Source: a virus
Lineage: Duplodnaviria; Heunggongvirae; Uroviricota; Caudoviricetes
Length of the DNA stretch: 64,000 nt
IMG/VR virus record: IMGVR_UViG_3300020050_015720
Reading direction: 5' to 3' (one strand)
The position numbers and the translations under genes were made by a program. Positions 9,493 to 46,644 of this stretch are shown piece after piece. Under the pieces are notes generated by a model. The model saw nothing but the letters and a program-made list of their open reading frames with translations, searched no databases and was not told the origin of the DNA. The stretch's first letter is position 1. Each line of letters starts with the position of its first letter.

Positions 9493-9494
9493 TT

Positions 9495-12400
9495 ATGCCA
9501 GATATAAGTCAATTAATTTCACCGGTCAAACACAAAGCCTATGCCAGACCTCGTAATGAGTTTGGCGGACAACCAATAGGTAGCGCTGACACCTATCTTG
9601 GTAGCTTGCTGGGGAATTACTACGATAAGGGCCTCTTGGATTATGAGAATCAAGCCAATGTCCGATATAATAATCAAGGCTATCCAACAGCAATTGCAAA
9701 CTTCTTAGGGGACTTAGGAGTAAAAACATTGTCTGGTGCACCAACAATAGTAGGCGCTTTTACAGGGCTTGTAGAAGGAAGTGCTAAAGCTCTTTCTGGT
9801 GGAGAGTTTGCTTCTGGATTTGAACATAACCCATTCTTGGATATGGGGAAGGCAATCAGTACCTGGGGTACTGAGCATTTTCCGCACTTTCAAGAGGCAA
9901 ACTTCCATGATAAAAGCTTTTGGGATCAACTATCTTCTCCTGGGCAACTAGCTACGGCTAATGTTGAAACAGTTTCTTTTTTAACTCAGAGCTTTGGATT
10001 AACAGGCTTGTTGGCAAAAGCAGCTACAGGCTCAAGGGTTATCAATGCTTTAGCAAAAGGAAAGTCATTTAGAGATGTCCTATTTAATTCGGGTAGTCAG
10101 AAGCTGGCCAAGATAGCTAGTAATATAGACGAGCTAACATTAAACACATTTTTAACTGTAAATGAATCTGCTCTTGAGGGAATTGATTCTAGGGATCAAG
10201 TAAAGAGGCAACTGGAGGTCGCAAGACAGCGTGGAGAAAATGAATTAACTGACGAACAAATAGCTGATAAAGCTAATCAGTCTTTAACCAATGTTTTTTG
10301 GTTGAACATGGCTACGGCTGGAGTTACAAACAACTTCTTCACAAAACTTGTGAAACCTATATTCAAACCTGGTGTTACTTCTACTAGGATGAATGACTTA
10401 GGACTAGGACTTGCAAAATCTTCGAGTAAGGTTGTTCAGGCCAAGGCTCCTTTGACTGCTGTTGAAAAGTTACTTTATGACCAAGGCAACTCCTATGCTA
10501 ATTTTGCAAAGTCAATTATCACTCAAACTTTTGGAGAGGGCTTAGAAGAAAATCTTCAGTACTCAATTCAAAAAGCAAATGATGCTACCCATAACCATAG
10601 TTCTTTTCTAGACGCTTCTAAAGCTTATATTAAAGATGTTTTAGAAATGGATTTCGCTGATCCAGACAGAGTAAAGGCCGCTGGTCTTGGAGCTATTATA
10701 GGTGGTGGCCAATCTATTGTTGCGGATCTAATTGGTGTAGGATCGGTCTCTCAATCTAGAAATTACCGTCAACGTCAAAAAGACGCCGAGACAAGGTTGA
10801 ATTCGGCTTATACTGATTTCTTCTCAACTGATGTTATAGAGCGTACGCCTGCAAAAAAAGGAAAGCTGGTAGCCAAGCCAAAAGAAGACGGAACACAAGA
10901 GTATTTTAATGAGATAGATGGACAGGTGCAGAAGATTGATGAAACACAGTACCAAGGATTGGCTGCTCAGTATGGAGCAGATCAGGATGGTAACTATGAA
11001 ATAGCTTCTTCTATAGTATTGGGAGATGATGGCCTACCTAAAAAGGATATGGCAAAAGCTTCCGCACTGGCCGCTGACATCACCTATCAAGGAGAATTAG
11101 ATAATTTATTTGATTTAGAAGCTGGCAGACCAAATCCTAATCCATTAAAACTAAAATATTTCCAGCTAGAAAAGTTAAACAATCTGGCCCAAACTGCCTT
11201 CAACTCTGGCACTACAGAACAGCTTATACAGAAGTTAGAAACTTTACAGCAAGCCACAGAAGAACAGGCCCAGGCAATGGGATTTTCAACAGCGAAGGAA
11301 CTACAAGAACAGGTAGATGGTTGGAAAGCACATATTGAAAGATTAGAGCAAAACTTTTTACAAGTAAATAATTCACTTCTATCGCCTACAGACGAGACTA
11401 CATTAAGAGGTTTAAAAGCTTACACAGCTAATGTTGGTGGTAGGATTGTAAATCTAAAAGCTTTATCCGAGGAAATTGGTAAAGAAATAAATGCAGTGTG
11501 GCAACAGGACCCAATTAGGGCTTCAGAAATAGCCACTGCTTTCAACGCTGGTGATATAGATGCTCTTGGTAAGTTTAAAACAAAGGATGCCCTCAATGAG
11601 CAACAGCTTGCTAATCTTCTAACCCAGCAAAAAGAAGCTGAAACAGCTTTGGAAGAACTGGGACAAGTTTATACGAAGCTAATAAAACCTAGCACAGGTT
11701 TTAAAGCCTATAAAGACGCTGTATCTAATAAAGATTTTAGTGGACTTCGAACAGTACGAGAAGGGCTAAAGACTTTATCTTTGGGGGAAGGAGCTACTGA
11801 CAAAACTGTTAATAGTTTCCTAGAGAAAAGGGCCACAGCTATTGAAACTGAAAAGAAGTTAAAGGTTGCAAAGACTTACTTTCAATCAGACGTATTAGCG
11901 GCAACAGTAAGGCTGTCAAATACAGGAAAGGATCTAGCTGATAAAATCGAATCTTTAAATAAAATAACTCAAACCCTTCAGGAAGAAGATCTTTCTATGT
12001 ACGGAGATGAGATAGACTTATTGAAGAATGAGATAGCAGAAGTGGCTGAAACTCTGCAAAAGGAAGAAGAAGCTATTTTAGCGAAACTACCAAATGGTAT
12101 CTCTGTTGAAGAGCTTCTAGAAATGGAAGCAGATGAACTACCTGATAGCATTTTAGCTTTGCTTGATGAATATGATAATATAAAAGCGTTACAGAGTTCT
12201 GCGGCACCTTTGATAAAGGACCAACAGAAAACTTTCGATACTCTTGACGCTAGAAAAACAAGTCCTGATTTCGTAGACAATATTGAAGCTAAGGAGCTCG
12301 CTGCAAAAGAAATAACTCAAGCGGCTGAACGGATTGTTGAGGTAAGTGAATTTGATGGTGAAAAGATATCAGAAGACTACACAGCACTAGAGGCAGTAAA

Positions 12401-15400
12401 GAAACAAATAGCTCATCTTGAAGCACTAGAGAAAATAAATCTTGATTCCCTTGGTAACAATGGTAAACTTATAAAAAGCAATGCTGCTATCCTACTTCCA
12501 AAACTAAGACTTATAAAAACTTTGGTTGAGGAGAATCTTAAGAACAAGGACTTAAAAAATACAAAGGAGAACTTATTCTACGCTGAGGCAACCAATGAAC
12601 TAACGCCAATCCTTACTGAAGATGTTCTAGATCCAGAATTAACTTCAATGGCGGTATTAGATACACTAGCTCAAGAACCTAAGAAAGCTATTGAAATTCA
12701 AGAGGCTTATAGGAAAAAGGCTGAAGAATTCTTACGTTCTATGAAGTTGCTTTGGACAACAGGACTTGGGCCAAGATTAACTGATGAATCTCTTGTTAGA
12801 ATATTAGACAATCCTAGTCGCGGATTTTTAGAAGTACTACGTATATTAGAGGCTAAGGAGAAATTAAATCCTCTACCAAAGCAGAATATAGATCCCTTAG
12901 TCAATTTTAATAAAAACTATGATATTGTTGATTTTAATACTGCTCTTGGTAACTATGTTGGTAACGCAACGAAGGAAGAACTAGCTGCTCTTGTAAAACT
13001 ACAGGCGCAGTTAACAGCTCTGCAACATATTCAATTGGCCGCTGAAGGTGGATTTAACCATGTTGAATTTCTTTCAAAGATCAGGAAGTTCATAAAGAAC
13101 AATCCGCTACTTCCACTACCTTCTTCAGCACAAATCAGGGTTGCTAGGGAATTGGCTACTTTCTTCTCTACCCCAAAAAATTCAGGAAAATTATATTCTG
13201 CTGGCGCAGCTTTAAGAGCTCCAGCGGGAGCAGGAAAATCCTTAGTAGTATCTAAGTTGTTGAAGCACGTGCTAGGCCTAAAGGATGAGGAAATTATTTC
13301 AGCGGCTCCATATCAACTAGCTGCCGAGAACATTGCAGAAAGTCTTGGTAATCCTGACAACACCAACACTATTGAACAAATAATAGCTAAACTAGAGTCC
13401 GATACTCTAGGTAAGGTGAGAACCATCATCATAGACGAAGCTGGGGGTCTTACTATTGAAACCATAAACAAGTTTGCTTCTGCTGTTGCTAAGTACAATA
13501 CTCTAAACGAAGAGGCACAGGTTAAGTATTTGTTTCTATATGACCCAAACCAAGTAACACCAGGAAACGTCGGTAGACCAGCACTAGATCTTGAATTTTA
13601 TGATAACTTTTCAGCTACTGAAACTGAGTATCATAATGGGGATAAAGCGGTAAAAGAGGCATTTGAGACAGGAAGAAGGCCAATAACAGCTGTTACGGGA
13701 TTACCTTTAGTAGAGAACTTGCTACAAATATCACCCTTATCGGCTACTTACAGAGCAGACTTAGATGAGTTAATAGATCTTCAGAATCAATACAAAAGTA
13801 AGGAAGAAGTAGTTGAACATAATTCATCTTCTTCAAAGGATATCTCCTTATCAGCTGAAGAGATAGAGGGCTCATTTGCAGAAACAGGCAACTCTATTGT
13901 AGATAGTTACAAACGTTCTGTAAGAAGCAATCCGGCTAGGACAAGGATTATACTGGTTGGAAGTAAAGCAAAGCAAGCTCAATATCAAGCTTCTCTTCCG
14001 GATGCTACTGTTCTGATGGTACCGGAAGCAGCAGGTATTGTTAGAGACGAGGTTTATGTGGACATTACTAAAGGGGATCAGGTAAATTTTGAGAACGTAG
14101 AAGTATATAATCAGTGGGTATATACAGCTTTATCAAGAGCAAGAAAATATGCACATCTGTCTAATGTCCCAAAGGCTTCCCACATAGTTGACCCAACTAT
14201 AGCAGCACAACCAAAAACTACAAGAACAGCTGAAGAAGTCTTAAAGCTTTTAGATGAACGCATAAAGATTTTAGAAGCATTAACTGATGTTGCTGTTCCT
14301 TCTGAAGAAGCTCCAGTACCAGAAAGTAAGCCTAAAAAGGAGAAAGAAGAAGAGGAAGAAGATATAACTTGGGAAGAAGATATTCCTATAGATACTCCAC
14401 CACAGCAGCCCGTTGTGCAAGGAGCCCATAGACTTCTTCATCCAACTAATGCAACATTTAAGCATGACCAAGGTAGAGACGGCATTAACCCACTAGTTCC
14501 TGGAGAAGTGCTTCAAATCGCCTTAGACCGTACTCCAAAAAAGGATGGTACACCAGCAAGTAGATACGTTATTCTACGAAAACTTGGAGGTGATCTTTTT
14601 GAAAGAATAGCAGTATTAGGAGAATCTGAAAATAGGAGGTTAGAGGAAAATTTAGGGATTTCCCTACAAACACTCCAACCCTCAACACTTTCTTCTACAG
14701 CTACTCCAGGTGTATTTAGGTCTCCTGGTCTTGATAGTATAGAGATCATAAACCAAGCCAGCAGTGCACCTCTCCAATACCTGTACGGTGAAGAGCCAAC
14801 GGAAGATTTTTCCTCTCTTGCAAGAGATGCTAATAGTGGAAAGATAACAGATATCCCTCTTCTGAGAAAGTATTTGAATGAGATGTGGGGTCCTAGTGGT
14901 GATGAGCAATTAGAGAACTATTCAGAAATACTAGCCAATCCTGCAAAGCATGTCACTATAGGCGTGTTTAAGTCTGCAAAGGATCTTGATAGATGGTTTC
15001 CGGATGCTACCTCAATAGAGGATAGACCTCAAATAGGTCCTCCTTATATGATGATACACGGACTACGAACTACAACTGGTAAGGTTGTAAAGACACAGTT
15101 CATTCGTCTCGCTCCAACAGTCTTAAATACAAAGACCACAAATATAGAGCCCCTTGTAAAATTCATAAAGACACTAGAACAATTTGAGAAAGCGTTGGCA
15201 AGTAGTAAATTACCAGGAGCTTACTCTACATTAAAACTAGGGGGCATGGTGGATATTGCTGGGGAGAAGTATTTTCCTTTTCACGAGCTTATCACACACC
15301 TTTCTAATACACACACGGCTCTTGTTGAAGGTAAGGAGGCTACATTGAAATTATCTCCTGCGCCGGCTCTAAATAAGTTGTTTCCCGATGTTGATGGGAA

Positions 15401-18400
15401 GAAGATTCCTAAGAAACTACTAGAGCTTGCATCCGAGTTAGATTTCTTGGTGCATGGTAATATTGAAGCTGGTAAGAGAAGATCCTATAAAGGAGAAGCT
15501 CAACTAATAATGGACTCCATTGGTAGTCAGAATTTAGTAATTACAACACATAATGGTAAGAATATAATTCTAAGAGACTACAAAGTATTAGATGAAGAGA
15601 AGGACGTAAAAGATACCAAGGGTATCAGTTTGCTTGGTCCTATTAAATTTACTAGGAAGAAAGGATTAGCCTATAATCCAAAAATAAACTCTGCGCTACT
15701 AAACCGATTAGAAGCTTATAGGGGTTCTTTAGTAAGAAGGGGAAAAGCCGGCACACCAAGATTTCATTTCATAAATGAGCTCTTAGAGACTCCAGGAAAT
15801 AAACACCTTTCTCCAATAAGCTTAGAGGACTTAAAGGATGTGTTCTTAGAAGGACAGGATAAAACAGGCACCTTTAGTAATATTTCAGAAGGATTTGGAT
15901 TGAGAACTCCTCTACCAAAGAGTTTTGATGTGAGCGCTGAGACAGCCTTAGAGAATCTACCCTTAGAGTTGGTGACTACACATTTTACAGGAGTACGCCA
16001 CACCGTCATAGATGTTGCCTTAGAAGCTGGAGTAACAAGTCCACTTGAGCAAGAACAACAAAGAGTAGAGCGCTCTGAACTAATTCGATTGAAAAGAAGG
16101 ATTGAGGAGTTTTCTAAGGAAACAAGCACTAAAACTATTGAACAAGCCATAACAAAAGAATTTAGCCAGAAGGCTACTGGGGAATTTGTTAGCGGTTTGG
16201 GAGCTATTTCGCTAATTGAAGCTGTCGAAAAATATAGAGAGGCTCACGCTCAAAGCCAATTATATGTAACACAAAATGTTGCTATAATCACTGCCCTAAA
16301 GGACGTCGCAAAACAAGAAAGCACTGCTCTCGATAATATTAAAGCAGATCTTGAAACATCCTTAGATGTCAAAGATACAGGACGAAACCAAGGCGACGTT
16401 GCTTCTAGAGACTTCATTAGAGCTTCTGTTCTTACGAGAATTTTGAATGCTATTAATGAACAAGAGGTATTTACGATTGCAGACTTTGCACGGACGGACT
16501 ATTATTCAGGTAAGAAGTTTGATAGAGCTAGATTTGATAATGACTTAGAAAGCTTGATTTATGAGTTTGAAGCTGACGAAGCTATTGTAAGACAAAAATT
16601 ACAAGAAGTTATAAATCACTACAACACACTTGCACAGCAGGCTGGATTAACCGAGCGTATAACCTATACAGAGCTAGAAGATCTCTACGACATCTTTGAC
16701 CAGTTAATACCTATTAGCTCTGCTCTTAGAAAAAAAGCAAGAGAAGGTTCTGCCTTACCAACTGTGCAGGCTTTTGATGCTGAAAGTTTAGATGTTCCTA
16801 CTGGATTCTCGGATTACTTAGAGAAGTTGGTGGCATTATCTGATTCACCAGCTGAAGAGTTCGAAGATGTATTCCAATCTAATTTCGAATATAGAGATAA
16901 GGTGCTTTCGATAAATCCTGATGATCCCATGGAAGGGGTCACAAAGTTATTGGAAGCAATTCATACTGAACGTTCAAAGAGATTCTTAGGTGAAAATCTT
17001 GGTGAAGAGTTTTCCGACGTAGATGTTGATAATTACGTGGGTAGATTCACAGGAAAAACACCTATTCAATTCTTGAAAAGCCTCTTCTCTAACAAGAAAG
17101 GAGAATTATATCAAATATTGGAATACGGGCAACTTGTCAATGCTAGAGGGGAAACTGTCTGGGGGCTCTATAAAAACGGGATAACTAGCTTTGCTAGATT
17201 AGCAAATGGTAAGATCTCTTCTAGAGTTGTAAGACACGAATTATTTCACAAAGTATTTTGGGAATACCTTACTCCAGCTGAACAGGTGCAGGCTTTAAAT
17301 CTTGCTCGTGAGGTTTATGGGGAATTAGGGGTTGTAGAATTAGAAGAGAAATTAGCCGAGAGTTTTGAGACATTTGTCAAAACAAAGACATCTAATATCT
17401 TTGAGATTCTTTGGAATAAGTTGAAACGTCTTTTAGGATTTACCTATAATAATCTAAGCAGCGTAGAGAATTTCTTTAATCTGATAGATAACAAGGCTTT
17501 CTATTTTAAGCAACGAGAGACACCATTAGTTGAAAGAGCTGCGATGAATCTGCGCTCAGAATTTAATTCTTACACAGAATATCATCAAGCAAAAACATTT
17601 ATTTTAGCTGCTTATTCTGAAATTCAAAGGAATCGGCCGACTACTCGAGTATTGAGTCAAAGTGAAATTCTTGAGTCTGTAGTAGAACGAATGAAGGATT
17701 TTGTAGAAAGTCCTAGTAAGTTTTCAGCAGGCATTACTTATACGCAGGAAGAAGCTGCTCAGCTTAGAGCCACGCTCGCAAAGATCTTAAAAAATGGAGG
17801 TCTTTGGAGAAAGCTTGTAAATCACTACTTTGGACAAACACAAACTAGAGGAGCTGTTCTGAAAGTACTGGATGCAATTAAATTAAAGGATATAGAAGAG
17901 AAAGAAGCTAAACTAGCCGCTCTCTTAGAAGGCGCTCCAGCAGAAGTAGAAGAAGGTAACGAAGAAAATGTTGACACACCAGAGTCGCTAACTTCTGAAC
18001 TTGATGCCCTACGAGCCGAGACATTTGACTCTATGCTTGTTGATCCTCACGTAAAATTAACGGGCGCAATAAAGCAAAGGTTAATCACAATAAAGTACTG
18101 GAAAAACGGTAAAGAAGATTATGCAGACTTAAACAGGGCCTATTCATTTTTGCTAGAACGTATTGCTTCAATTCCTAAGCATTCTATAAGAGGGGCATTG
18201 GAAGCTTTGAAACACAACTTTAAAGAATTCCAAGGAATAAGAAGTAAACCTAATATCCGTTGGGCTACAGGAAACGCTATGTTGAATTTGTTTCACGACA
18301 TAGAGACAAAGTTAGATGCTCCGAACAGACTAAAGAATATTTCTTTTAGAAAAGACGCAACCTTTAAGGGGGTGTATGCGATTTACTCTTTAGATGGTTC

Positions 18401-21400
18401 GTCTGTTGAAGAAGTAACCTTACATACAGCAAAGCAATTTCCTACAAAGTATGGTGTTGAACATCAACAAAGCACTACACACAGCTTCATTGAGCTCTTA
18501 GCTAATAAGGTACGAGTCCCATATAGTTCAGTAGGACAAGCATACTACTTGTTTGAAGATATGGACTTTTTAAAGAGCTTACTGGCAGCTGTAGCATCCT
18601 TGAGAAAAAGTAAGCCATTAGCCTTCATTGAGCGTTGGGATTTTGGTATTTATAAAGTAATAAACTACATAATAAAAGCAGGTGGAGGTAAAAGAGCCCA
18701 TGAAGCTAATCTCCGCTTCTTCTTTAATAAATATGTAGAAACCCGTCTTGAGGCCAAGGAAAAGAAACTCTTTCCTCAGGAATTCATGGACAAACTTTAT
18801 AATACAAATGTAAAAACAATAGAAGAGAAAAGAAGCCTTATAAAGGAGTTTCTTAATCTTATAGATGTCCATAAAAGAATAACAGATGCTTCTGCTAGGA
18901 GTGTTGAGTTATTTTTTGAACGTTTAAAACTTGTTGCTCCAAAATTGCAGGCTGGTTATGCAACAGAGAAGACAGACTACGAAACTGAAGAAGAATATCA
19001 AGAAGCTAGAAGTGGTGAAACTCTGTTAGAAAATGAGGGAAGCTTTATTGATGAATTAACAGATATGTTGAATTCCCACTTTGCTTTAGGTGAAACTCAC
19101 TCCTATACAAGAGGCGACGGTAAAAAAGCTTTTGGATGGATTGATTCTTCCTACCAGACAGATCTACTGACAAGTCTCGAAAATGCTTTACAGGGACGAC
19201 CAGCCAAGAGTTTTGATACTTTTTCTGTACAAAATGGAAAAGTGAAAAGCACCGATCCATTCCTATCTTCTAATATTTTCTTTAACGGTCTAAACACGCT
19301 GTTCTCGTATAATGAACATGATTCATGGAAACAAAAAGGGAATGAGCGCTTCGCTAAATTCCTTCGCAAAGAAAATTTAAATGACTTTAGAAAGCGCCAC
19401 ATAGTAGGTAATTTTATTTCTAGAGTAGCGGCTTCAAGAGGAAAATACTATCAAGCTCTGCCTATTCCATCAAATAGAACGACCATTGCTAATGTAGAGG
19501 TTTCAGTATTAAAAGGAGCACAGATAGATAAAGCTTTACTAGCTATTATCAACGCTCAAAAAAATAGACCTGATCCAAAGTTACTTGGAAATAATCCAAC
19601 ATATGCTAAGAATTACCAATCTTGGAGATTTGCGGGACTGACTGGTTCAACAAAAGATCTTTCAACTACTGAAGCTATTGAGGCAGTAAAGAAACACGTA
19701 ACTACTAAGGTAGCAGAACTATTGCCTGCTTTCATCAGATTACCAGAGAAAAATGCTAAGGTACCTATTTCCGACAAGGATTTAAAAGCTGCGGCTAGCA
19801 TACTGAATATTGGAACTGCTCCCGAATGGAAACGTAACATGAGTGATGAAGAATTAAATAATTATTTTGAAAAAAGAAATCAAATAGTTGAAAAACTAAT
19901 AGAAAGTTTCTACTTTAATTTCATAATAAACCAGTATTCTTTATCTCAAATTATTTATGGTGACGAGGCTTTCTTCGCTAACAAGGAAGAACAAACAAAA
20001 CGTATTCAGATAGTAACTGCTACTGGGGACACTATGCTAATAGATGCTGTACACGGGCTCCCTAAAGAATCCAAAGTATTGGTTGTCGAAGACTTAGTAA
20101 GAGAGATTCCAGAAGACCTAGAAGCTGCTATCAATGCTTCCTACGGAGCTGACTACGAAGCTTCAGATGCTGAAGGATTTATGCTACCAGAGTTCTATGA
20201 AAAGATTGCTTCTGCTTATGGAGCTGATGCTCTTGTTGATACAGTATTAAAGCCCGTATATTTCTCCATAGAAAAGGGTGTTCCAACAGCCGTAAAATAT
20301 TCTGTTAAAGTCTTGACTGACGAACTTGTTGCTGCCTTTCCTCATCTTGCCACCTATAGAGAGGCCATGCGTAATGCGAAAGCAGATCAGATGGTTTTCA
20401 AATCTGGTGTAAAGATTGGTAGACCTGCTAGTCCAGCCAAACTTGGAGAGGATGGTCGAATACATACGAATAGTATATCAGAAGGATCTTTCATTACATT
20501 AAACAATGAGAATCTACGTTTCCAGTTGAACCCAGCCCACAGTGTAGAAACAAGCGTAGCAGCCCCTTCACAGGCTACCGCTATGCAGGACACAAACGGA
20601 GAGAATACACATGAAATTTATGATCTACACTTAGCAAGTGCTACAATCATAGATAATGGTGTTAGGCAAGTCTCAAGAGATTTAAGGCTAACTAGCAAGG
20701 GCACTTTAACAGCTGCTTCTGAAAACTTATTAAGGGCAAAGTTAATTGAAAACCTAGACGGTCTTGATGGAGCAAAGGATGTTTATGAAATTCTAAAAAC
20801 AGAATCCAAAAAACAAAAAGCTTCTTTCAATCTCCCGTTAATAGCTGATCGTGTAGTTTCTAGTATAGGTTCCATGATAACAGCCGCAACAACAGGATTC
20901 AGATTTAAAGGCTCAAAGTTAGTTTTACAAGCGGATCTTGGACCAGTCGAAATTACTAATCCAGACGGTTCGAAAGAAATGCGTAATCTAAAGTGGCGCG
21001 ACTCAGAGGGTTACTGCGAAGTAATCTTACCTGAAGAGTATGCTGCTTATATGACTGTTGGTGATGTTCTTGGGCTCTCTAATGGCTTAGTTGGTTTTAG
21101 GATTCCTACTACTAACTATCACTCATTATTACCAATGAAGGTAGTTGGTTTTTATCCTAAGTCTGCGGCTTCTCAAGGAAACATTATAATCGCCCCTTCT
21201 CTTATAGTATACTACCATGGTTCTGACTATGACGTAGACAGTTTGTTTGTTATTAGAAAAGACTACAATGATATGAAGGAAGCGCTAGATTTAAATACTA
21301 TTTTAAGTAGCGTTGATCCTTCCCATGTTTATAATCCTGATCTTGTAACTCCAGTAGGGGAAGCCTATGGTTACCTAAATGGAAAACCTATCACTATTGA

Positions 21401-21782
21401 AGGAGCAAAATTGCGTGACTATTTGACGTCTAAAGTAGTATCTATCAGTCAACAAATCAATCTGTTAACAAGTCAGATGGCGGGGGCTACCTATGCAGAA
21501 CGAAGCCAGCTGAATGCCAAATTAAAGGATTTAAATGATAAGCTTTCAAAACTAAATGCAACAACTGAAACAGTTGCCAAAAATGACATTGTTCATAACT
21601 TTGCAACTAATCTTCTTGAGATGAAAAATAGAAAGGATCTTTTAACTCCTATCTCATTTGAAGATGTTGTGCGCAATAGGCATAGAATGCAAAAAGAGCT
21701 TTCCAACTTATTAACTGATGATATTAATTCTTCATTCTATAAGAAACTCGCAGAGTCCGGTTTAATTAAAATAAAATGCTAG
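9495..21782 (+). CDS. giant 4095-aa multidomain virion protein. It carries an SF1 helicase-like module, an HExxH motif and a DxDxD motif, and is a candidate virion-packaged RNA polymerase / ejected cargo protein.
   Basis: 12.3-kb ORF with no stop in the standard code. Motifs read from the translation: Walker A APAGAGKS, Walker B IIIDEAGG, YDPNQVTPG (helicase motif III-like) and YTALSRAR (motif VI-like); HELFH; DYDVD near the C-terminus. TAG stop overlaps the next ATG (ATGCTAG). Confidence 0.85.
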   Translation: MPDISQLISPVKHKAYARPRNEFGGQPIGSADTYLGSLLGNYYDKGLLDYENQANVRYNNQGYPTAIANFLGDLGVKTLSGAPTIVGAFTGLVEGSAKALSGGEFASGFEHNPFLDMGKAISTWGTEHFPHFQEANFHDKSFWDQLSSPGQLATANVETVSFLTQSFGLTGLLAKAATGSRVINALAKGKSFRDVLFNSGSQKLAKIASNIDELTLNTFLTVNESALEGIDSRDQVKRQLEVARQRGENELTDEQIADKANQSLTNVFWLNMATAGVTNNFFTKLVKPIFKPGVTSTRMNDLGLGLAKSSSKVVQAKAPLTAVEKLLYDQGNSYANFAKSIITQTFGEGLEENLQYSIQKANDATHNHSSFLDASKAYIKDVLEMDFADPDRVKAAGLGAIIGGGQSIVADLIGVGSVSQSRNYRQRQKDAETRLNSAYTDFFSTDVIERTPAKKGKLVAKPKEDGTQEYFNEIDGQVQKIDETQYQGLAAQYGADQDGNYEIASSIVLGDDGLPKKDMAKASALAADITYQGELDNLFDLEAGRPNPNPLKLKYFQLEKLNNLAQTAFNSGTTEQLIQKLETLQQATEEQAQAMGFSTAKELQEQVDGWKAHIERLEQNFLQVNNSLLSPTDETTLRGLKAYTANVGGRIVNLKALSEEIGKEINAVWQQDPIRASEIATAFNAGDIDALGKFKTKDALNEQQLANLLTQQKEAETALEELGQVYTKLIKPSTGFKAYKDAVSNKDFSGLRTVREGLKTLSLGEGATDKTVNSFLEKRATAIETEKKLKVAKTYFQSDVLAATVRLSNTGKDLADKIESLNKITQTLQEEDLSMYGDEIDLLKNEIAEVAETLQKEEEAILAKLPNGISVEELLEMEADELPDSILALLDEYDNIKALQSSAAPLIKDQQKTFDTLDARKTSPDFVDNIEAKELAAKEITQAAERIVEVSEFDGEKISEDYTALEAVKKQIAHLEALEKINLDSLGNNGKLIKSNAAILLPKLRLIKTLVEENLKNKDLKNTKENLFYAEATNELTPILTEDVLDPELTSMAVLDTLAQEPKKAIEIQEAYRKKAEEFLRSMKLLWTTGLGPRLTDESLVRILDNPSRGFLEVLRILEAKEKLNPLPKQNIDPLVNFNKNYDIVDFNTALGNYVGNATKEELAALVKLQAQLTALQHIQLAAEGGFNHVEFLSKIRKFIKNNPLLPLPSSAQIRVARELATFFSTPKNSGKLYSAGAALRAPAGAGKSLVVSKLLKHVLGLKDEEIISAAPYQLAAENIAESLGNPDNTNTIEQIIAKLESDTLGKVRTIIIDEAGGLTIETINKFASAVAKYNTLNEEAQVKYLFLYDPNQVTPGNVGRPALDLEFYDNFSATETEYHNGDKAVKEAFETGRRPITAVTGLPLVENLLQISPLSATYRADLDELIDLQNQYKSKEEVVEHNSSSSKDISLSAEEIEGSFAETGNSIVDSYKRSVRSNPARTRIILVGSKAKQAQYQASLPDATVLMVPEAAGIVRDEVYVDITKGDQVNFENVEVYNQWVYTALSRARKYAHLSNVPKASHIVDPTIAAQPKTTRTAEEVLKLLDERIKILEALTDVAVPSEEAPVPESKPKKEKEEEEEDITWEEDIPIDTPPQQPVVQGAHRLLHPTNATFKHDQGRDGINPLVPGEVLQIALDRTPKKDGTPASRYVILRKLGGDLFERIAVLGESENRRLEENLGISLQTLQPSTLSSTATPGVFRSPGLDSIEIINQASSAPLQYLYGEEPTEDFSSLARDANSGKITDIPLLRKYLNEMWGPSGDEQLENYSEILANPAKHVTIGVFKSAKDLDRWFPDATSIEDRPQIGPPYMMIHGLRTTTGKVVKTQFIRLAPTVLNTKTTNIEPLVKFIKTLEQFEKALASSKLPGAYSTLKLGGMVDIAGEKYFPFHELITHLSNTHTALVEGKEATLKLSPAPALNKLFPDVDGKKIPKKLLELASELDFLVHGNIEAGKRRSYKGEAQLIMDSIGSQNLVITTHNGKNIILRDYKVLDEEKDVKDTKGISLLGPIKFTRKKGLAYNPKINSALLNRLEAYRGSLVRRGKAGTPRFHFINELLETPGNKHLSPISLEDLKDVFLEGQDKTGTFSNISEGFGLRTPLPKSFDVSAETALENLPLELVTTHFTGVRHTVIDVALEAGVTSPLEQEQQRVERSELIRLKRRIEEFSKETSTKTIEQAITKEFSQKATGEFVSGLGAISLIEAVEKYREAHAQSQLYVTQNVAIITALKDVAKQESTALDNIKADLETSLDVKDTGRNQGDVASRDFIRASVLTRILNAINEQEVFTIADFARTDYYSGKKFDRARFDNDLESLIYEFEADEAIVRQKLQEVINHYNTLAQQAGLTERITYTELEDLYDIFDQLIPISSALRKKAREGSALPTVQAFDAESLDVPTGFSDYLEKLVALSDSPAEEFEDVFQSNFEYRDKVLSINPDDPMEGVTKLLEAIHTERSKRFLGENLGEEFSDVDVDNYVGRFTGKTPIQFLKSLFSNKKGELYQILEYGQLVNARGETVWGLYKNGITSFARLANGKISSRVVRHELFHKVFWEYLTPAEQVQALNLAREVYGELGVVELEEKLAESFETFVKTKTSNIFEILWNKLKRLLGFTYNNLSSVENFFNLIDNKAFYFKQRETPLVERAAMNLRSEFNSYTEYHQAKTFILAAYSEIQRNRPTTRVLSQSEILESVVERMKDFVESPSKFSAGITYTQEEAAQLRATLAKILKNGGLWRKLVNHYFGQTQTRGAVLKVLDAIKLKDIEEKEAKLAALLEGAPAEVEEGNEENVDTPESLTSELDALRAETFDSMLVDPHVKLTGAIKQRLITIKYWKNGKEDYADLNRAYSFLLERIASIPKHSIRGALEALKHNFKEFQGIRSKPNIRWATGNAMLNLFHDIETKLDAPNRLKNISFRKDATFKGVYAIYSLDGSSVEEVTLHTAKQFPTKYGVEHQQSTTHSFIELLANKVRVPYSSVGQAYYLFEDMDFLKSLLAAVASLRKSKPLAFIERWDFGIYKVINYIIKAGGGKRAHEANLRFFFNKYVETRLEAKEKKLFPQEFMDKLYNTNVKTIEEKRSLIKEFLNLIDVHKRITDASARSVELFFERLKLVAPKLQAGYATEKTDYETEEEYQEARSGETLLENEGSFIDELTDMLNSHFALGETHSYTRGDGKKAFGWIDSSYQTDLLTSLENALQGRPAKSFDTFSVQNGKVKSTDPFLSSNIFFNGLNTLFSYNEHDSWKQKGNERFAKFLRKENLNDFRKRHIVGNFISRVAASRGKYYQALPIPSNRTTIANVEVSVLKGAQIDKALLAIINAQKNRPDPKLLGNNPTYAKNYQSWRFAGLTGSTKDLSTTEAIEAVKKHVTTKVAELLPAFIRLPEKNAKVPISDKDLKAAASILNIGTAPEWKRNMSDEELNNYFEKRNQIVEKLIESFYFNFIINQYSLSQIIYGDEAFFANKEEQTKRIQIVTATGDTMLIDAVHGLPKESKVLVVEDLVREIPEDLEAAINASYGADYEASDAEGFMLPEFYEKIASAYGADALVDTVLKPVYFSIEKGVPTAVKYSVKVLTDELVAAFPHLATYREAMRNAKADQMVFKSGVKIGRPASPAKLGEDGRIHTNSISEGSFITLNNENLRFQLNPAHSVETSVAAPSQATAMQDTNGENTHEIYDLHLASATIIDNGVRQVSRDLRLTSKGTLTAASENLLRAKLIENLDGLDGAKDVYEILKTESKKQKASFNLPLIADRVVSSIGSMITAATTGFRFKGSKLVLQADLGPVEITNPDGSKEMRNLKWRDSEGYCEVILPEEYAAYMTVGDVLGLSNGLVGFRIPTTNYHSLLPMKVVGFYPKSAASQGNIIIAPSLIVYYHGSDYDVDSLFVIRKDYNDMKEALDLNTILSSVDPSHVYNPDLVTPVGEAYGYLNGKPITIEGAKLRDYLTSKVVSISQQINLLTSQMAGATYAERSQLNAKLKDLNDKLSKLNATTETVAKNDIVHNFATNLLEMKNRKDLLTPISFEDVVRNRHRMQKELSNLLTDDINSSFYKKLAESGLIKIKC
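13214..14160 (+). other. SF1 (Dda/RecD/Pif1-like) helicase domain embedded in the giant ORF
   Basis: Ordered motifs: GAGKS (about 13220-13243), DEAGG (about 13435-13450), DPNQVTPG (about 13540-13565) and TALSRAR (about 14124-14145). Confidence 0.6.
17235..17249 (+). other. HExxH (HELFH) zincin-like motif inside the giant ORF
   Basis: Single short motif (cac gaa tta ttt cac). No supporting third ligand was identified, so this is weak evidence. Confidence 0.25.
21225..21239 (+). other. DYDVD (DxDxD) motif. Candidate metal-binding catalytic motif of a crAss-type virion RNA polymerase.
   Basis: The sequence 'gac tat gac gta gac' in the context YYHGSDYDVDSLFVIRKDY. DxDxD / DxDGD motifs mark the two-barrel RNAPs (YonO, QDE-1, crAss-like virion RNAP). 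This is inference from the motif alone. Confidence 0.4.
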
Positions 21783-24700
21783 ATTGTAAAATAATTGTAA
21801 ACGAAAAAGAATTCTCTGTAGAGGAATTTAGGGCGTTTGTTTTCGAGAATGGATTAGGGGGCTTAAGTACTGAGCCCCTTTCTCCTCTTGCTGAAACACT
21901 AATAGAACGGTATGATCCATACGCTCAAGAACCTTCTTTATCAGAAGTTTGGGCTGCTCTTGAAAGCCAAAAAAATAACAAAGAAGTTAGGGCTTTTCAA
22001 AGTCAAGAAGAAGTTGATGCCGCTTTAACAGCACAAGGACAATTAACAGACTTCAGTGCTCAAGAACAGATAAGATATAATACCTATTCTGGTATCTCTC
22101 TTACTGGTATTGCGGCCAACTTTGGTAAGATGTTTTCATATCTTCTAAGTACAACTCCAATAGAATCTGTAATTGGTCCTGATAACTTTGTCTATATGGC
22201 AGGCAGTACCGAATTAAATAAGGTTTTAGTAGCAAATAAAGCAGCTACTATAGAAGGCCTAATACAAAAAAATATTGGGTTCAGGATTCAAAAACGAGAA
22301 GCTGTTAGACTAAAAGATATCTTTAAGACCACCGTAAATGGAACAACTATATCTGGATTTTCCAGACTTGATGAAAAACAGAAGAATGTATTTGAAACCA
22401 TAGATACAATAATCAACTTGGCTATTGACAACGTTAAGATGCAAAAACTGCACATATTAGGTATTACTAATAATAATGCTAATTTGTTCTTAACATTTCT
22501 TGGATTTGGCTTTCCGTTGAATACTGTTTCTAGAATATTTAAAACTCCAGCAGTAACTGCCCTAAGTGAGGGTGGGCGTTGGACTTCAGAGAAATTAAGA
22601 AAAGAACTCGTTAAGCTTACGGATGAGCTTATAAAAGATGATAATTGGCAAAACCGCCTTTATGAATTATACCCTGAGCAAGCGGATAAGCTCATAGGAG
22701 CCGTTCAGAAACAGAAGGGCATAAGCATGGCTTTCGGTCGATTATCGATTGAAACCTCAACACTTGATTCCATATACATAGGTAAAACAAGAGGAATCGA
22801 TAGACTTATTTCAGATCTAGTTGTACTTTCAAACCTAAGGAAACTTATCCCAGTAGGAGAAGAATTGTTTACTCATAGCCAGGTGTATAGTTCTTTGCGA
22901 GGATTACCAAACAAACGTTGGAAAGTAGATTCTGTAATAGGAAAGATTGAAAGATATACCAAGTTCGCAGATGAAAGTAACAGGGGTGCTGAACTACAAA
23001 AGGTACTTGTGGAAACACTAGCAGAAACCTTTAGGGAATCAGCAGAATATAAGGCTGCTCTTGAAGAATCAGAGGAAACAGCTGAAAAGCTACTTAAAGA
23101 GAGACTAGATAAGTATAAGGAAAATCCAGATCTATCAGATTTCTATTTTGCTCAGATCAGGGCCACTTTTGTAAACAAAATTCTTAGGAGAAGTTTATCA
23201 AGAAAGATAAAGCCTTCTGATAATTCTGCCTTTGAAAATTCTACACCTCTTAGGCTTCCACACGTGTTAGCCGCTTATAGAGCACTACTTCTTTACAAGA
23301 AGATCTTAGAAAACAGTTTCTTTGTCTATAATCCGATAGTGCAAGGATTTATAAATCGTTTTCTAAATGAGACTAATATATTCACACCGTTCGATCAACT
23401 AGAGAAGACAGATGAGGTTTCAAAAGAATTAATCAAATATCTTAGTGCTGATTTAGACTTTGATGTAAATGGTGTCCCATTCTCCACAAGCGTTCCATCT
23501 GATACTGTTTATCACACAGATAAAAAATCTTATTATGGGAAAGAAGCTTGGGGACAAAAGTTTATTTCTTCAGCCGGTAAGGTCCTGAGTATTGACTCTA
23601 GCAATGAGTTCTTAAATGCCCTAGAGATTATAACAAATAGAGATAAAGTTACAAAACTTCAAATCGTAGCAGACAAGGTAAGTGATGAGGAGATGCTAGA
23701 ACTTATAAGGGAAGACTTTGAAAAGCTTATACATAATAAAGAGGTAATACCAGGAACAGAAACATCTTGGGCTGATTTTGCTCGTGATCTATTTAAATAT
23801 TCGCTTATAAGCGACGGGATGTATTTTGAACGCACTGGATTATCACTTGTATTCCCTGCCGAATGGTCTATTGGTTATTCAAATGCTCAGGACGCAAGAC
23901 TAGAAGCAGTCATACCTAAAGACGATGCTAGAAGTGGTATTAATCTATCTCTTCTAAAAGATGCCTTTACATTTCAAATGCTTCGATCTAGACCCGATTT
24001 GGTTAGGCGCAATGATACTGCTCCAATGACTATTGCAAATGTAAAGATGTCATGGGGAAATAAGAAGATATTCCATGGAACTGCAAATTACGCCGACAAG
24101 AAGATACACTTTGACTTAAAATTTAATGTTCCTTTCTCAGATAATTCTCCTAGATTTATCCGTTTATATGGTAATGAAGTCTACATGTTAAAAAACACTC
24201 CTGGAAGTGAGTACACATACTATGTGCAACTAACAGAGCCAGGGGGTTCTCCTCACTATAGATTTTCTATAAATGATATAGATACTGCCTTTAGTTTGGA
24301 TAAATTAGAGTTTAATGGAAGAATAGTAAATAGATCTAATATACAAGGTAGCACTTTGACCGAAGCTATCGATGGTTACATTCTTGAAAAAGGAGATACA
24401 GTAGCCGCTTTTAATAGGCAAGACGCATCCGGCACAGAATTAACTATCTATGAAGTTACGCACGCAAGGCAGACCGATACTGAATACAGGTACACACTCC
24501 GATTTAAATCGAAGGTTCCATTAACAAAAACCGAGGTAGCTCCAGCTATCAGAAGTCTGGCTGGATCTTTCACATCAAGTAGAACTGGAACAACCGTTGT
24601 TGTAGATAAGATAAAGGAAATAAGGGAGAAGGCACTAAAACGGAATAATGTAATAGTCTCAACTTCAGAAATAGAAGAGGGTATAGTACTACCACTATCC

Positions 24701-46636: not shown

Positions 46637-46644
46637 TATTTTTT

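What the first reader, a model, noticed from the sequence alone, without database searches (positions are those of the whole stretch)
9495..21782. 4095-aa single ORF that combines an SF1 helicase module, an HExxH motif and a C-terminal DxDxD (DYDVD) motif
Giant virion proteins of crAss-like phages include a multisubunit-like RNA polymerase that is ejected into the host, and its catalytic loop is a DxDxD-type motif. Here a complete Dda/RecD-like helicase motif set (GAGKS, DEAGG, DPNQ, SRAR) lies at about aa 1240-1560 of the same polypeptide. DYDVD is at aa 3911-3915. A fusion of helicase and putative RNAP in one 12.3-kb gene, flanked by five other ORFs of 632-1444 aa, is an unusual cargo architecture.
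Basis: partly seen in the sequence, partly recalled or inferred. Interest (0 to 1): 0.7.

Follow-up and report, generated by a model that had tools for sequence, protein, structure and literature searches.

The report
Helicase fused to split crassvirus virion RNAP
This 12.3-kb gene of a crAss-like phage joins a DNA-unwinding motor and a protease-like module to the catalytic core of the RNA polymerase that such phages inject into their host, which may explain how that polymerase obtains the single-stranded DNA it needs.

Summary
In detail: ORF 9495-21782 encodes 4095 aa and carries every motif named, at the stated positions.

Three corrections:
- The polymerase is incomplete in this ORF. The trigger-loop motif, and probably the bridge helix, lie in the next ORF (21776-25222). 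In many relatives that ORF is fused in frame.
- The architecture is not unique. At least 14 metagenomic cluster representatives of 4200-6400 aa share the order helicase, HExxH, DFDxD.
- The HExxH module is a conserved domain with an invariant downstream Glu, but it matches no known family. A second HExxH, equivalent to gp65's, lies in ORF 25411-29745.

The N-terminus resembles gp67. I found no paper describing a helicase in this gene block, and the two model crassviruses lack one. The likely role, supplying single-stranded template to the polymerase, is inferred.

The parts
9495..21782 (+). Giant ORF of 4095 aa: gp67-like head, SF1B helicase, HExxH domain and two-barrel RNAP core
   Evidence: colinear homologs in L003 (44% identity), L006 (38%) and P0032-P0084 (27-29%)
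9642..11711 (+). N-terminal module (aa 50-739) similar to the phi14:2 virion protein gp67
   Evidence: hhalign E 4e-5, prob 70%; bridging BLASTP through P0084, which matches gp67 at 5e-29 and the window at 6e-11
10677..10748 (+). Glycine-zipper-like hydrophobic segment (aa 395-418, AAGLGAIIGGGQSIVADLIGVGSV)
   Evidence: hydropathy scan; function not tested
13041..14204 (+). SF1B (Dda/RecD/Pif1-like) helicase domain, aa ~1183-1570
   Evidence: Pfam AAA_30 2e-10, AAA_19 7e-7, PHROG 325 2.6e-9; Foldseek top hits RecD, Pif1, RecD2 and Dda; motifs conserved in 18 of 18 sequences
13227..13241 (+). Helicase motif I (Walker A, GAGKS)
   Evidence: GxGK[ST] in 18/18
13434..13448 (+). Helicase motif II (Walker B, DEAGG)
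   Evidence: DE in 18/18
13542..13553 (+). Helicase motif III (DPNQ)
   Evidence: Gln in 18/18
14001..14060 (+). Helicase motif V region (VPEAAGIVRDEVYV)
14133..14144 (+). Helicase motif VI (SRAR, within YTALSRAR)
   Evidence: weak Pfam UvrD_C_2 match at E 0.019
14295..14384 (+). Acidic low-complexity linker after the helicase (aa 1601-1630)
16902..17774 (+). Conserved HExxH domain (aa 2470-2760) with invariant H2581, E2582, H2585 and E2618; a gluzincin-like signature with no known family
   Evidence: invariant in 10-20 sequences; no Pfam or PDB match; homologous stretch in the cr50_1 giant ORF at aa 1665-1753
19017..21674 (+). RNAP-homologous region (aa 3175-4060). From aa 3462 on it aligns to gp66 853-1508, which covers both DPBBs, the connector and the catalytic loop
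21093..21128 (+). GFRIPTTNYHS motif of the second barrel, aligned to gp66 GYRIPNQGQSS
21225..21239 (+). Catalytic metal-binding loop DYDVD, aligned to gp66 1361-DFDID-1365
   Evidence: gp66 Asp-to-Ala mutants are inactive (preprint 10.1101/2020.03.07.982082)
21776..25222 (+). ORF-1148: the second RNAP polypeptide, equivalent to gp66's C-terminal part. Its ATG overlaps the giant ORF's stop codon
   Evidence: fused in frame behind the RNAP core in P0032, P0040, P0043, P0047 and others; bridges P0089, P0084 and P0099 map it to gp66 ~1420-1750; junction conserved in L005
22037..22150 (+). Candidate bridge helix (ORF-1148 aa 88-125, against gp66 1525-1568)
   Evidence: weak colinear hhalign hit, E 0.02; inferred
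22394..22438 (+). Trigger-loop-region motif ETIDTIINLAIDNVK (ORF-1148 aa 207-221), matching gp66 DTISAFLNAFVDNAK inside the trigger loop 1598-1636
   Evidence: hhalign E 2.6e-4; motif conserved ~250-410 aa after the catalytic loop in nearly all relatives
25411..29745 (+). ORF-1444: probable gp65 ortholog (RNAP-associated protein), with its own HExxH (HEYYH, nt 25741-25755)
   Evidence: in P0065 and P0088 a gp65-like HExxH stretch is followed by ORF-1444-like sequence in the same chain. The evidence is weak
347..1048 (+). Crassvirus tail ring protein 1 (context marker)
   Evidence: Pfam CrAss_Ring_1, E 1e-28
1048..5268 (+). Large virion structural protein (1406 aa)
   Evidence: phrog_15100, E 4e-92; closest are Flavobacterium and Cellulophaga crAss-like phages at 28% identity
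5268..7604 (+). Probable cargo protein 1 (778 aa)
   Evidence: Pfam crAss_CARG1 at E 1.4e-4, below the gathering score
7594..9492 (+). 632-aa ORF in the position of cargo protein 2; no family match
   Evidence: assigned by position only

Best explanation
WHAT IT IS (shown by homology). The gene encodes the main 'transcription cargo' protein of an uncultured crAss-like phage of an environmental Bacteroidota-phage lineage. It is a chain of modules.
- aa 50-739: a head related to the phi14:2 virion protein gp67.
- aa ~1183-1570: an SF1B helicase with all ATPase and translocation motifs intact.
- aa 1601-1630: an acidic linker.
- aa ~2470-2760: a conserved HExxH...E domain.
- aa ~3175-4060: the catalytic core of a gp66-type two-barrel RNA polymerase, with both double-psi barrels, the connector and the Mg-binding loop DYDVD.

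The polymerase is not complete in this chain. The trigger-loop segment, and probably the bridge helix, are in the next, translationally coupled ORF (21776-25222). The active enzyme must therefore be a heterodimer of the two products. In many relatives the two are one chain.

HOW IT MOST LIKELY WORKS (inferred).
1. As in phi14:2 and crAss001, these proteins are packed in the capsid, extruded ahead of or with the DNA, and refold in the cytoplasm.
2. gp66 alone transcribes single-stranded DNA well and double-stranded DNA hardly at all.
3. I propose that the fused helicase supplies that single-stranded template. An SF1B motor moves 5'->3' on one strand, the same physical direction in which an RNA polymerase moves along the other (template) strand. 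A tethered helicase on the non-template strand could therefore open the entering genome for the polymerase, with no promoter melting.
4. The HExxH module may cut the chain into working pieces or remove an inhibitory segment. That step is the least supported.
For: RNAP core:
- tblastn against phages hits phi14:2 g066 at 2e-10.
- BLASTP gives 1e-15, with DYDVD opposite DFDID.
- hhalign gives 98.8%, E 1e-16, over 555 columns, gp66 853-1508.
- Foldseek puts 6vr4 first at 7e-16, followed by QDE-1 and RDR2.

Split polymerase:
- ORF-1148 is fused in frame after the core in at least 14 giant proteins.
- Three bridging proteins map it to gp66 ~1420-1750.
- A deep-profile hhalign hit covers gp66 1593-1664 at E 2.6e-4.
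- The motif xIDxxxNxAxDNxK is shared with gp66's trigger loop.
- The stop/start overlap is conserved in L005.

Helicase:
- Pfam and PHROG hits and SF1B-only top fold hits.
- Motifs I, II, III, V and VI are conserved in 18 of 18 sequences down to 25% identity, which argues for a working ATPase.

Virion context:
- CrAss_Ring_1, structural and cargo genes lie directly upstream.
- The N-terminus is gp67-like. gp65, gp66 and gp67 are virion proteins by mass spectrometry in the phi14:2 record.

Need for single-stranded template:
- gp66 did not transcribe double-stranded M13, was weak on native phi14:2 DNA and was strong on single-stranded or denatured DNA.
- No early-promoter motif was found.
- QDE-1 needs the helicase QDE-3.

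Second, differently placed fusion: the cr50_1 giant ORF has a Dda-like helicase after its RNAP core.

Ejection and refolding model: Bayfield et al. 2023, PMC10172136.
Against: - No experiment bears on this phage. Packaging, cleavage, helicase activity and polarity, and any helicase-RNAP coupling are all inferred.
- The helicase model is poor (pLDDT 53). Only domain 1A is confident, and the stretch between motifs III and IV (~125 aa) is unmodelled. Pfam support for domain 2A is sub-threshold (UvrD_C_2, E 0.019).
- The model crassviruses work without such a helicase. phi14:2 gp65, gp66 and gp67 and a crAss001-type block have none by Pfam. It is therefore not essential to the mechanism in general, and host factors may do the job.
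- About 1900 residues and a possible protease separate the helicase from the RNAP core. The modules may be separated after cleavage and act independently.
- The HExxH domain has no detectable relative of known function.
- The bridge-helix assignment rests on a weak hit (E 0.02).
Confidence: 0.55

Rival explanations
1. Polyprotein of convenience. The fusion only guarantees co-packaging and fixed stoichiometry of several ejected proteins. After cleavage, possibly by the embedded HExxH domain, the helicase and the polymerase act separately, and the helicase serves replication or recombination start-up, not transcription.
For: The phi14:2 paper already proposes that fused versions are cleaved polyproteins. 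Gene boundaries fall at different module junctions in different lineages: phi14:2 has three genes, the window splits after the catalytic loop, and P0065 has everything in one 6403-aa chain. An acidic linker follows the helicase. A conserved HExxH domain lies in the chain.
Against: The helicase keeps the same place relative to the HExxH and RNAP modules in at least 15 diverged clusters. A second lineage (cr50_1) also attached a Dda-like helicase to its RNAP protein, which suggests a functional link to transcription. The genome has its own replication helicase (SF2, 43652-44620) and PolA in the replication module.
Confidence: 0.25
2. Genome-internalisation motor. The ejected helicase acts as an ATP-driven DNA translocase that pulls the ~100-kb genome into the cell, as transcription does for T7. 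The RNAP is a passenger on the same ejected protein.
For: SF1B helicases are single-stranded DNA translocases (general knowledge). The protein is in the ejection/cargo block and has a gp67-like head with a hydrophobic glycine-zipper-like segment. Cargo proteins leave ahead of the DNA in the crAss001 model.
Against: SF1B enzymes need a single-stranded 5' tail and unwind the duplex; they do not reel it in. Nothing in the sequence suggests anchoring at the channel. Crassviruses without the helicase internalise similar genomes.
Confidence: 0.12
3. Counter-defence or roadblock remover. The injected helicase strips host proteins, R-loops or defence nucleases from the incoming DNA, as Dda displaces proteins ahead of forks.
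For: The helicase has Dda-like family affinity. It would be delivered at the most vulnerable stage of infection. This is inference only.
Against: No defence-related domain or PADLOC-type context was examined or seen. The conserved order with the RNAP points to transcription instead.
Confidence: 0.06
4. Artefact. The long ORF is an assembly chimera or a chance open frame, and the motifs are coincidental.
For: A single DxDxD is expected by chance about 0.7 times in 4095 aa, and one of the two present (DVDVD 2508) is indeed chance.
Against: Full-length colinear homologs come from independent samples and assemblers: L003, L004, L005, L006 and 15+ cluster representatives. All functional motifs are conserved. 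Fold matches are significant.
Confidence: 0.01

Closest known systems
phi14:2 gp66, the virion-packaged two-barrel DNA-dependent RNA polymerase of crAss-like phages (PDB 6VR4)
   Same: The region from gp66 853 to 1508 is homologous: both double-psi barrels, the connector and the catalytic DxDxD loop (DYDVD against DFDID). The GxRIP motif and the DLxTPIxF motif are shared. Both lie in the virion cargo gene block downstream of the tail ring and structural genes, and both have a gp67-like and a gp65-like partner.
   Different: Here the core is the C-terminal fifth of a 4095-aa chain that also carries a gp67-like head, an SF1B helicase and an HExxH domain. The trigger-loop region, and probably the bridge helix, are on a separate polypeptide (ORF-1148), so the enzyme is not single-subunit. 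Identity is only ~23%. No counterpart of gp66's N-terminal 850 residues, which include the cleft-blocking domain, was detected.
Giant ORF of uncultured phage cr50_1 (MT774375; Suoliviridae), annotated 'DNA helicase'
   Same: One huge ORF (4774 aa) in the same genomic position holds an HExxH stretch homologous to the window's (aa 1665-1753), a gp66-like RNAP core with GSDFDID (aa 3152-3158) and an SF1B/Dda-like helicase.
   Different: Its helicase is at the C-terminal end (aa 4249-4720), after the polymerase. It resembles T4-type Dda (tblastn ~1e-15), whereas the window's helicase has no tblastn match in 50,697 phage records. The two helicases share only superfamily-level similarity (27% identity over 132 columns, hhalign E 1e-7). 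No ORF-1148-like sequence was recognisable.
QDE-1 with QDE-3 (Neurospora RNA-silencing polymerase and its RecQ-type helicase)
   Same: It is a two-barrel polymerase of the same structural class that prefers single-stranded DNA and depends on a helicase. QDE-1 is the second-best structural match of the model.
   Different: QDE-3 is a separate SF2 (RecQ) protein, not a fused SF1B domain. The system is eukaryotic and cellular, not virion-delivered. The analogy is functional, not a family relationship.
T4 Dda, RecD/RecD2 and Pif1 (SF1B helicases)
   Same: Motifs I, Ia, II, III, V and VI are shared. Pfam AAA_30/AAA_19 match, and these are the best fold matches.
   Different: The domain is embedded in a 4095-aa virion-block protein. 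It is very divergent, with a best PDB sequence hit to Pif1 at E 0.012. The accessory pin and SH3 domains could not be resolved.
Split large subunits of cellular RNAPs (cyanobacterial/plastid beta' split into RpoC1 and RpoC2). Recalled from general knowledge, not tested here
   Same: The chain is broken between the catalytic-Asp barrel and the bridge-helix/trigger-loop part.
   Different: The lineage and sequence are unrelated. Here the split is a recent, clade-specific event, with the two parts fused in sister lineages.

Membership tests
crAss-like virion RNAP (gp66 family, two-barrel RNAP) | Catalytic DxDxD (DFDxD-type) loop aligned with gp66 1361-1365 | tested here: met
   DYDVD 3911-3915 aligns to DFDID. 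HGSD[YF]D[VI]D is conserved across relatives.
crAss-like virion RNAP (gp66 family, two-barrel RNAP) | Two double-psi beta-barrels joined by a connector in one chain | tested here: met
   [not shown]
crAss-like virion RNAP (gp66 family, two-barrel RNAP) | Bridge helix and trigger loop in the same polypeptide (single-subunit enzyme) | tested here: not met
   The giant ORF ends at about gp66-equivalent 1540. The trigger-loop motif is in ORF-1148 aa 207-221. The enzyme here is a two-chain variant.
crAss-like virion RNAP (gp66 family, two-barrel RNAP) | Packaged in the virion and ejected; transcribes early genes; rifampicin-resistant | not testable with these tools
   Inferred from the gene's position in the cargo block and from homology to proteins found in virions by mass spectrometry.
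SF1B helicase (Dda/RecD/Pif1) | Motifs I, II and III of RecA-like domain 1A, with a profile match | tested here: met
   AAA_30 at 41 bits against a cut-off of 27, AAA_19 at 30 against 25.1, PHROG 325 at 2.6e-9. The motifs are invariant in 18 of 18 sequences.
SF1B helicase (Dda/RecD/Pif1) | Second RecA-like domain 2A with motifs IV, V and VI | tested here: inconclusive
   Motif V-like and VI-like blocks are conserved in all relatives. Pfam UvrD_C_2 reaches only E 0.019, below its cut-off, and the model of this part is below pLDDT 50.
SF1B helicase (Dda/RecD/Pif1) | 5'->3' polarity, with pin and SH3 accessory domains | not testable with these tools
   The SF1B assignment rests on the best profile and fold neighbours.
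Zincin / gluzincin metalloprotease | HExxH plus a third ligand downstream | tested here: met
   H2581, E2582, H2585 and E2618 are invariant in the family alignment. This is motif-level evidence only.
Zincin / gluzincin metalloprotease | Profile or fold similarity to a known metalloprotease family | tested here: not met
   No Pfam match for any of 10 members (best DUF5700 at E 0.056, one member only) and no PDB match. No similarity to gp65's HExxH region. I do not file it as a member.
Crassvirales | Signature structural genes (tail ring, muzzle and cargo proteins) and gene order | tested here: met
   CrAss_Ring_1 at 1e-28, a sub-threshold crAss_CARG1 match, and phrog_15100 at 4e-92. The nearest cultured relatives are Flavobacterium and Cellulophaga crAss-like phages. 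TerL, portal and MCP are outside the window and were not tested.
phi14:2 gp67-like virion protein | Sequence homology to the gp67 N-terminal region | tested here: met
   hhalign E 4e-5, prob 70%. Transitive BLASTP links run through P0084, P0065 and P0059. The strength is moderate.

The most novel reading that the evidence does not exclude
A clade of crassviruses delivers a self-contained 'unwind-and-transcribe' machine. An SF1B helicase is covalently tethered to the virion RNA polymerase. It loads on the entering genome end and feeds single-stranded template to a polymerase that cannot open duplex DNA itself, so early transcription needs neither promoters nor host factors. A second lineage (cr50_1) attached a Dda-like helicase at the other end of its RNAP protein, which would make this a recurrent solution. 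It would also mirror the QDE-1/QDE-3 pairing in eukaryotic RNA silencing, which has been proposed to descend from such a phage enzyme.
Probability: 0.35. Interest if true: 0.8.

Novelty: new variant of a known kind. Interest (0 to 1): 0.6.

Why it matters
The virion RNA polymerase of crAss-like phages, the most abundant phages of the human gut and common in the environment, has one known in-vitro weakness. It transcribes single-stranded DNA but barely touches double-stranded DNA, and no early promoters have been found. How it starts on an injected duplex genome is an open question.

A conserved, apparently active helicase built into the same protein in a whole clade gives a concrete and testable hypothesis for that step. 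It also provides natural material for the test: the helicase-plus and helicase-less lineages, and fused against split polymerases.

The naturally split enzyme marks a tolerated break point just after the catalytic barrel, which is useful for expression and structural work on these very large proteins.

On the practical side, these proteins are unnamed in public sources, and one GenBank giant ORF is labelled only 'DNA helicase'. In the sister genomes, annotation is also broken up by TGA recoding.

Tried and rejected
- A full-length search of the 4095-aa protein in the 5.8-billion-protein database timed out. I used segments instead.
- megablast of the gene against phages found no match.
- HMMER never linked this protein to gp66: phmmer of the whole protein against PDB, a family profile against PDB and three local iterations for ORF-1148 all failed. 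6VR4 is in the library. BLAST, HH-suite and two fold-comparison methods do find the link, so I treat the HMMER misses as a sensitivity limit for long, gap-rich alignments.
- tblastn of the helicase segment and of the HExxH segment against 50,697 phage genomes found nothing.
- ORF-1148 against gp66, gp65, gp67 and cr50_1 gave nothing by BLASTP or with a 3-sequence profile. The question was solved only after an exhaustive phmmer search gave 99 relatives, bridging proteins and a deep profile.
- The helicase profile against PDB gave only Pif1, at E 0.012. NCBIfam gave only sub-threshold RecD and TraA hits.
- The AlphaFold model of the helicase is poor (pLDDT 53). I used it only for the consistent SF1B ranking of hits.
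- The HExxH family matched nothing in Pfam or PDB.
- I considered and rejected four ideas. (1) The second DxDxD (DVDVD 2508) is not functional, because it is not conserved. (2) Stop-codon recoding does not change the giant ORF's boundaries. (3) The giant/ORF-1148 boundary is not a sequencing frameshift, because it is conserved in L005 with an overlapping ATG. (4) The ORF is not an assembly chimera.
- Yutin et al. 2018, the source for the zincin and polyprotein statements, is not in the held library, and Fig. 3 of Yutin et al. 2021 cannot be viewed. I therefore cannot exclude that a helicase box is drawn there. The texts I could search do not mention one in the transcription block.
Full report
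**1. The observation**

The ORF at 9495..21782 (+) is real and encodes 4095 aa.
- GAGKS at 1245-1249
- DEAGG at 1314-1318
- DPNQ at 1350-1353
- SRAR at 1547-1550
- HELFH at 2581-2585
- DYDVD at 3911-3915

Five further large ORFs (1406, 778, 632, 1148 and 1444 aa) flank it on the same strand.

A DxDxD alone is weak evidence. About 0.7 are expected by chance in a protein of this size, and a second one (DVDVD 2508-2512) is not conserved in the closest relative. What makes the named motifs meaningful is their conservation in relatives and their alignment to characterised proteins, described below.

**2. Context**

- The first ORF of the window is a crassvirus tail ring protein (Pfam CrAss_Ring_1, E 1e-28).
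- The next is a large virion structural protein (phrog_15100, E 4e-92).
- The 778-aa ORF has a sub-threshold cargo-protein-1 match.
- The nearest cultured relatives of the structural protein are crAss-like phages of Flavobacterium and Cellulophaga, at about 28% identity.
- The gene has no near-identical DNA among 50,697 phage records.
- The minus-strand half of the window holds replication genes (PolA, an SF2 helicase) and an endolysin.

The giant gene therefore sits where phi14:2 has g067-g066-g065 and crAss001 has its cargo and RNAP-associated genes.

**3. The polymerase core**

- tblastn with the C-terminal 927 aa hits phi14:2 g066, annotated 'catalytic RNA polymerase subunit', at E 2e-10. 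It also hits the 'putative RNA polymerase' genes of many Bacteroides crassviruses.
- BLASTP against gp66 gives E 1e-15 over window aa 3465-3924 and gp66 856-1374. GFRIPTTNYHS falls opposite GYRIPNQGQSS, and HGSDYDVD opposite TGSDFDID.
- A profile of the window segment and ten relatives at 41-55% identity aligns to gp66 853-1508 with HH-suite probability 98.8% and E 1e-16.
- According to the gp66 paper, 1361-DFDID-1365 is the catalytic motif and each Asp-to-Ala mutant is inactive. The connector between the two barrels is 1095-1238, the bridge helix is 1529-1559 and the trigger loop is 1598-1636. The aligned region therefore covers both barrels, the connector and the catalytic loop.
- An AlphaFold2 model of aa 3400-4095 (pLDDT 66.8) finds 6VR4 first by Foldseek (E 7e-16). 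QDE-1 (about 1e-4) and RDR2 follow, and generic double-psi barrel proteins and multisubunit RNAP chains come lower.
- HMMER-based searches against PDB missed this link although 6VR4 is in the library. I regard that as a sensitivity limit.

**4. The polymerase is split**

Only 184 residues follow DYDVD in the giant ORF, against about 815 in gp66. The HH alignment runs to DLLTPISFEDV opposite DLITPIDFPHV (gp66 about 1498-1508), so the ORF ends near gp66-equivalent 1540.

Direct comparisons of the next ORF (21776-25222, 1148 aa) with gp66 failed. An exhaustive phmmer search of that ORF found 99 relatives.

- In at least 14 of them the homologous region is the C-terminal part of 4200-6400-aa proteins. 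Upstream these carry, in order, a Walker A, an HExxH and a DFDxD, and they are colinear with the window's giant protein. In P0040, giant residue 4091 abuts ORF-1148 residue 7.
- Three single-chain relatives align to both gp66 and ORF-1148. They place ORF-1148 aa ~180-350 opposite gp66 ~1575-1745 (P0089, P0084 and P0099).
- An 81-sequence profile of ORF-1148's first 480 residues aligns aa 200-269 to gp66 1593-1664 (E 2.6e-4). Colinearly and weakly, it aligns aa 88-125 to gp66 1525-1568 (E 0.02).
- The motif T[ILM]D[ST]xxN[LA]A[ILV]DN[VT]K lies 250-410 residues after the catalytic loop in nearly all relatives. It matches gp66 DTISAFLNAFVDNAK inside the published trigger loop. In the window it is at ORF-1148 aa 207-221.
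- The boundary is not an error. The giant ORF ends ...G(L/I)I(K/Q)(I/L)KC* in the window, L005 and L006. In the window and L005 the next ATG overlaps the stop codon.

The window phage thus makes its polymerase from two translationally coupled genes, broken between the catalytic barrel and the bridge-helix/trigger-loop part.

**5. The helicase**

- Pfam AAA_30 (E 2e-10, 41 bits against a cut-off of 27) and AAA_19 (7e-7) cover aa 1238-1336. UvrD_C_2 touches motif VI below threshold (E 0.019). PHROG 325 'Dda-like helicase' gives 2.6e-9.
- The segment has only two close relatives in the 5.8-billion-cluster database and none among deposited phages.
- The distant giant proteins all have the domain. 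In 18 sequences, down to 25% identity:
  - motif I (GxGK[ST]), motif II (DE) and the motif III Gln are invariant;
  - an R[ST]R..I[IV]V block is conserved;
  - motif V (xxG...EVY[VI]) and motif VI (YTAx[ST]R[AG]) are conserved.
- That is the pattern of an enzyme under selection for ATP hydrolysis and translocation.
- The AlphaFold model is poor (pLDDT 53; domain 1A at 70-90). Even so, its best structural matches are exclusively SF1B enzymes: RecD, Pif1, RecD2, Dda, Dna2 and herpesvirus UL5.

**6. The HExxH module and the other parts**

- HELFH lies in a ~290-aa domain conserved in 19 relatives. H2581, E2582, H2585 and E2618 are invariant; E2618 sits 33 residues downstream, in EExLAExF.
- The same stretch occurs in the cr50_1 giant ORF (BLASTP 2e-5).
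- The signature looks like that of gluzincins, but no Pfam or PDB family matches. I treat 'protease' as an inference.
- It is not the zincin domain that the literature assigns to gp65. That one (HEIMH at gp65 aa 245) corresponds in position to a second HExxH in the window (HEYYH, ORF-1444 aa 111). Chains such as P0065 and P0088 carry both.
- The giant protein's aa 50-739 resemble gp67 (hhalign E 4e-5; transitive BLASTP through P0084, P0065 and P0059).
- A glycine-zipper-like hydrophobic segment (aa 395-418) and an acidic linker after the helicase (aa 1601-1630) complete the picture.

**7. Distribution and novelty**

- The order gp67-like head, helicase, HExxH, RNAP core is shared by the window, L003, L004 and L006 and by at least 14 cluster representatives at under 50% mutual identity. 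Several lie on 95-106-kb contigs, and all are unnamed or 'hypothetical'.
- phi14:2 gp65, gp66 and gp67 and the three RNAP-associated proteins of a crAss001-type genome have no helicase domain by Pfam.
- One deposited genome, cr50_1 (Suoliviridae), has a 4774-aa ORF annotated only as 'DNA helicase'. It contains the HExxH stretch, a gp66-like core with GSDFDID, and a Dda-like helicase at its C-terminal end (AAA_30, E 5e-21).
- That helicase resembles T4-type Dda and is not shared with other deposited crassviruses. It is related to the window's only at superfamily level.
- Fused 'polyproteins' and a zincin domain in this block are known.
- I found no text describing a helicase there. Two sources could not be checked: the 2018 paper and a figure in the 2021 paper.
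- I therefore rate the finding as a new variant of a known kind.

**8. Mechanism**

Shown by homology:
- a two-chain gp66-type polymerase;
- an intact SF1B helicase in the same polypeptide as the polymerase core;
- location in the virion cargo block.

Inferred:
- Packaging, ejection and refolding occur as in phi14:2 and crAss001.
- The helicase provides the single-stranded template that gp66-type enzymes need. gp66 did not transcribe double-stranded M13, was weak on native phage DNA and was strong on single-stranded or denatured DNA. No early promoter motif was found.
- From general helicase and RNAP knowledge, a 5'->3' motor on the non-template strand travels in the same direction as a polymerase reading the template 3'->5'. 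The geometry is therefore compatible with co-directional coupling.

Rivals, weighed in the structured fields:
- a polyprotein of convenience whose modules act independently after cleavage;
- a genome-internalisation motor;
- a counter-defence helicase.

None is excluded by sequence analysis.

**9. Side findings**

- The sister genomes read TGA as sense. All in-frame stops in their giant genes are TGA: 5 in L003, 2 in L004 and 8 in L006, with more in the downstream genes. Two of L003's four internal TGAs lie opposite Trp in the window protein.
- The window's virion block has no TGA in about 9,800 codons. Its PolA and SF2 helicase genes, however, are interrupted by in-frame TGAs that restore full-length proteins when read as sense.
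- No tRNA genes are present in the window or in the fetched loci.

Noticed in passing
L003 (nt 6698-16381), L004 (1179, 4287), L005 (2415, 9659), L006 (884-20936): In all four sister contigs the giant gene and its two downstream genes are interrupted only by in-frame TGA codons (5, 2, 2 and 19 respectively) and terminate at TAA. Two of L003's four internal TGAs align with Trp in the window protein. These phages evidently read TGA as Trp (code-4-like), so gene callers have chopped their giant proteins into fragments.
   Followed up: yes
window 46636-48534 (-) and 43652-44839 (-): The window's PolA is called as separate exonuclease (47746-48339) and polymerase (46645-47718) ORFs, divided by one in-frame TGA at 47746-47748 (context ...SAYAPVN[TGA]NSWRQV...). 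The SF2 helicase frame has two more (44654-56 and 44792-94). The window phage probably also decodes TGA as sense, yet its virion block has 0 TGA in ~9,800 codons (69 TGG). That is the opposite of the usual 'late genes recoded' pattern.
   Followed up: partly
window 25411-29745 (+), HEYYH at 25741-25755: There is a second HExxH motif in the cargo block, in the 1444-aa ORF. It matches in position the HEIMH of phi14:2 gp65, the zincin-like 'RNAP-associated protein'. The block therefore carries two unrelated HExxH modules. With TGA read as sense, this ORF's frame would open at 25216, abutting the previous stop, instead of at the GTG at 25411.
   Followed up: partly
L001 (MT774375.1 cr50_1) 7264-21588: The 4774-aa ORF annotated only as 'DNA helicase' also contains a gp66-like RNAP core (GSDFDID at aa 3152-3158) and the HExxH stretch (aa 1665). 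The public annotation hides the virion RNA polymerase of this Suoliviridae genome.
   Followed up: yes
P0065 (6403 aa, Logan contig of 26.8 kb); P0088 (4279 aa): In P0065 the whole block is one polypeptide: gp67-like head, helicase, HExxH, RNAP core, ORF-1148-like part, gp65-like HExxH and ORF-1444-like part. P0088 has the same order without a recognisable helicase. Gene boundaries in this block are highly fluid between lineages.
   Followed up: partly
L006 12364-13068: Between the giant gene and the ORF-1148 homolog, L006 has ~700 nt with small ORFs that is absent from the window and L005, where the two genes overlap. It may be an insertion or an N-terminal extension readable only with TGA as sense.
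   Followed up: no
window 17016-17030: A second DxDxD (DVDVD, aa 2508-2512) is not conserved in the closest relative. It is a chance match and shows that the bare motif is not diagnostic.
   Followed up: yes
window 10677-10748: A glycine-zipper-like hydrophobic segment (AAGLGAIIGGGQSIVADLIGVGSV) lies in the gp67-like head. It could be a membrane-inserting element of an ejection protein. Its conservation was not examined.
   Followed up: no
window 45539-46636 (-) and 42531-43700 (-): Two 365-389-aa ORFs lie directly adjacent to the PolA and SF2-helicase pieces, in different frames, and have no family match. They might be further gene fragments, or intron or mobile-element ORFs of the kind reported in crassvirus replication genes. 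They were not examined.
   Followed up: no
[not shown]
   Followed up: yes
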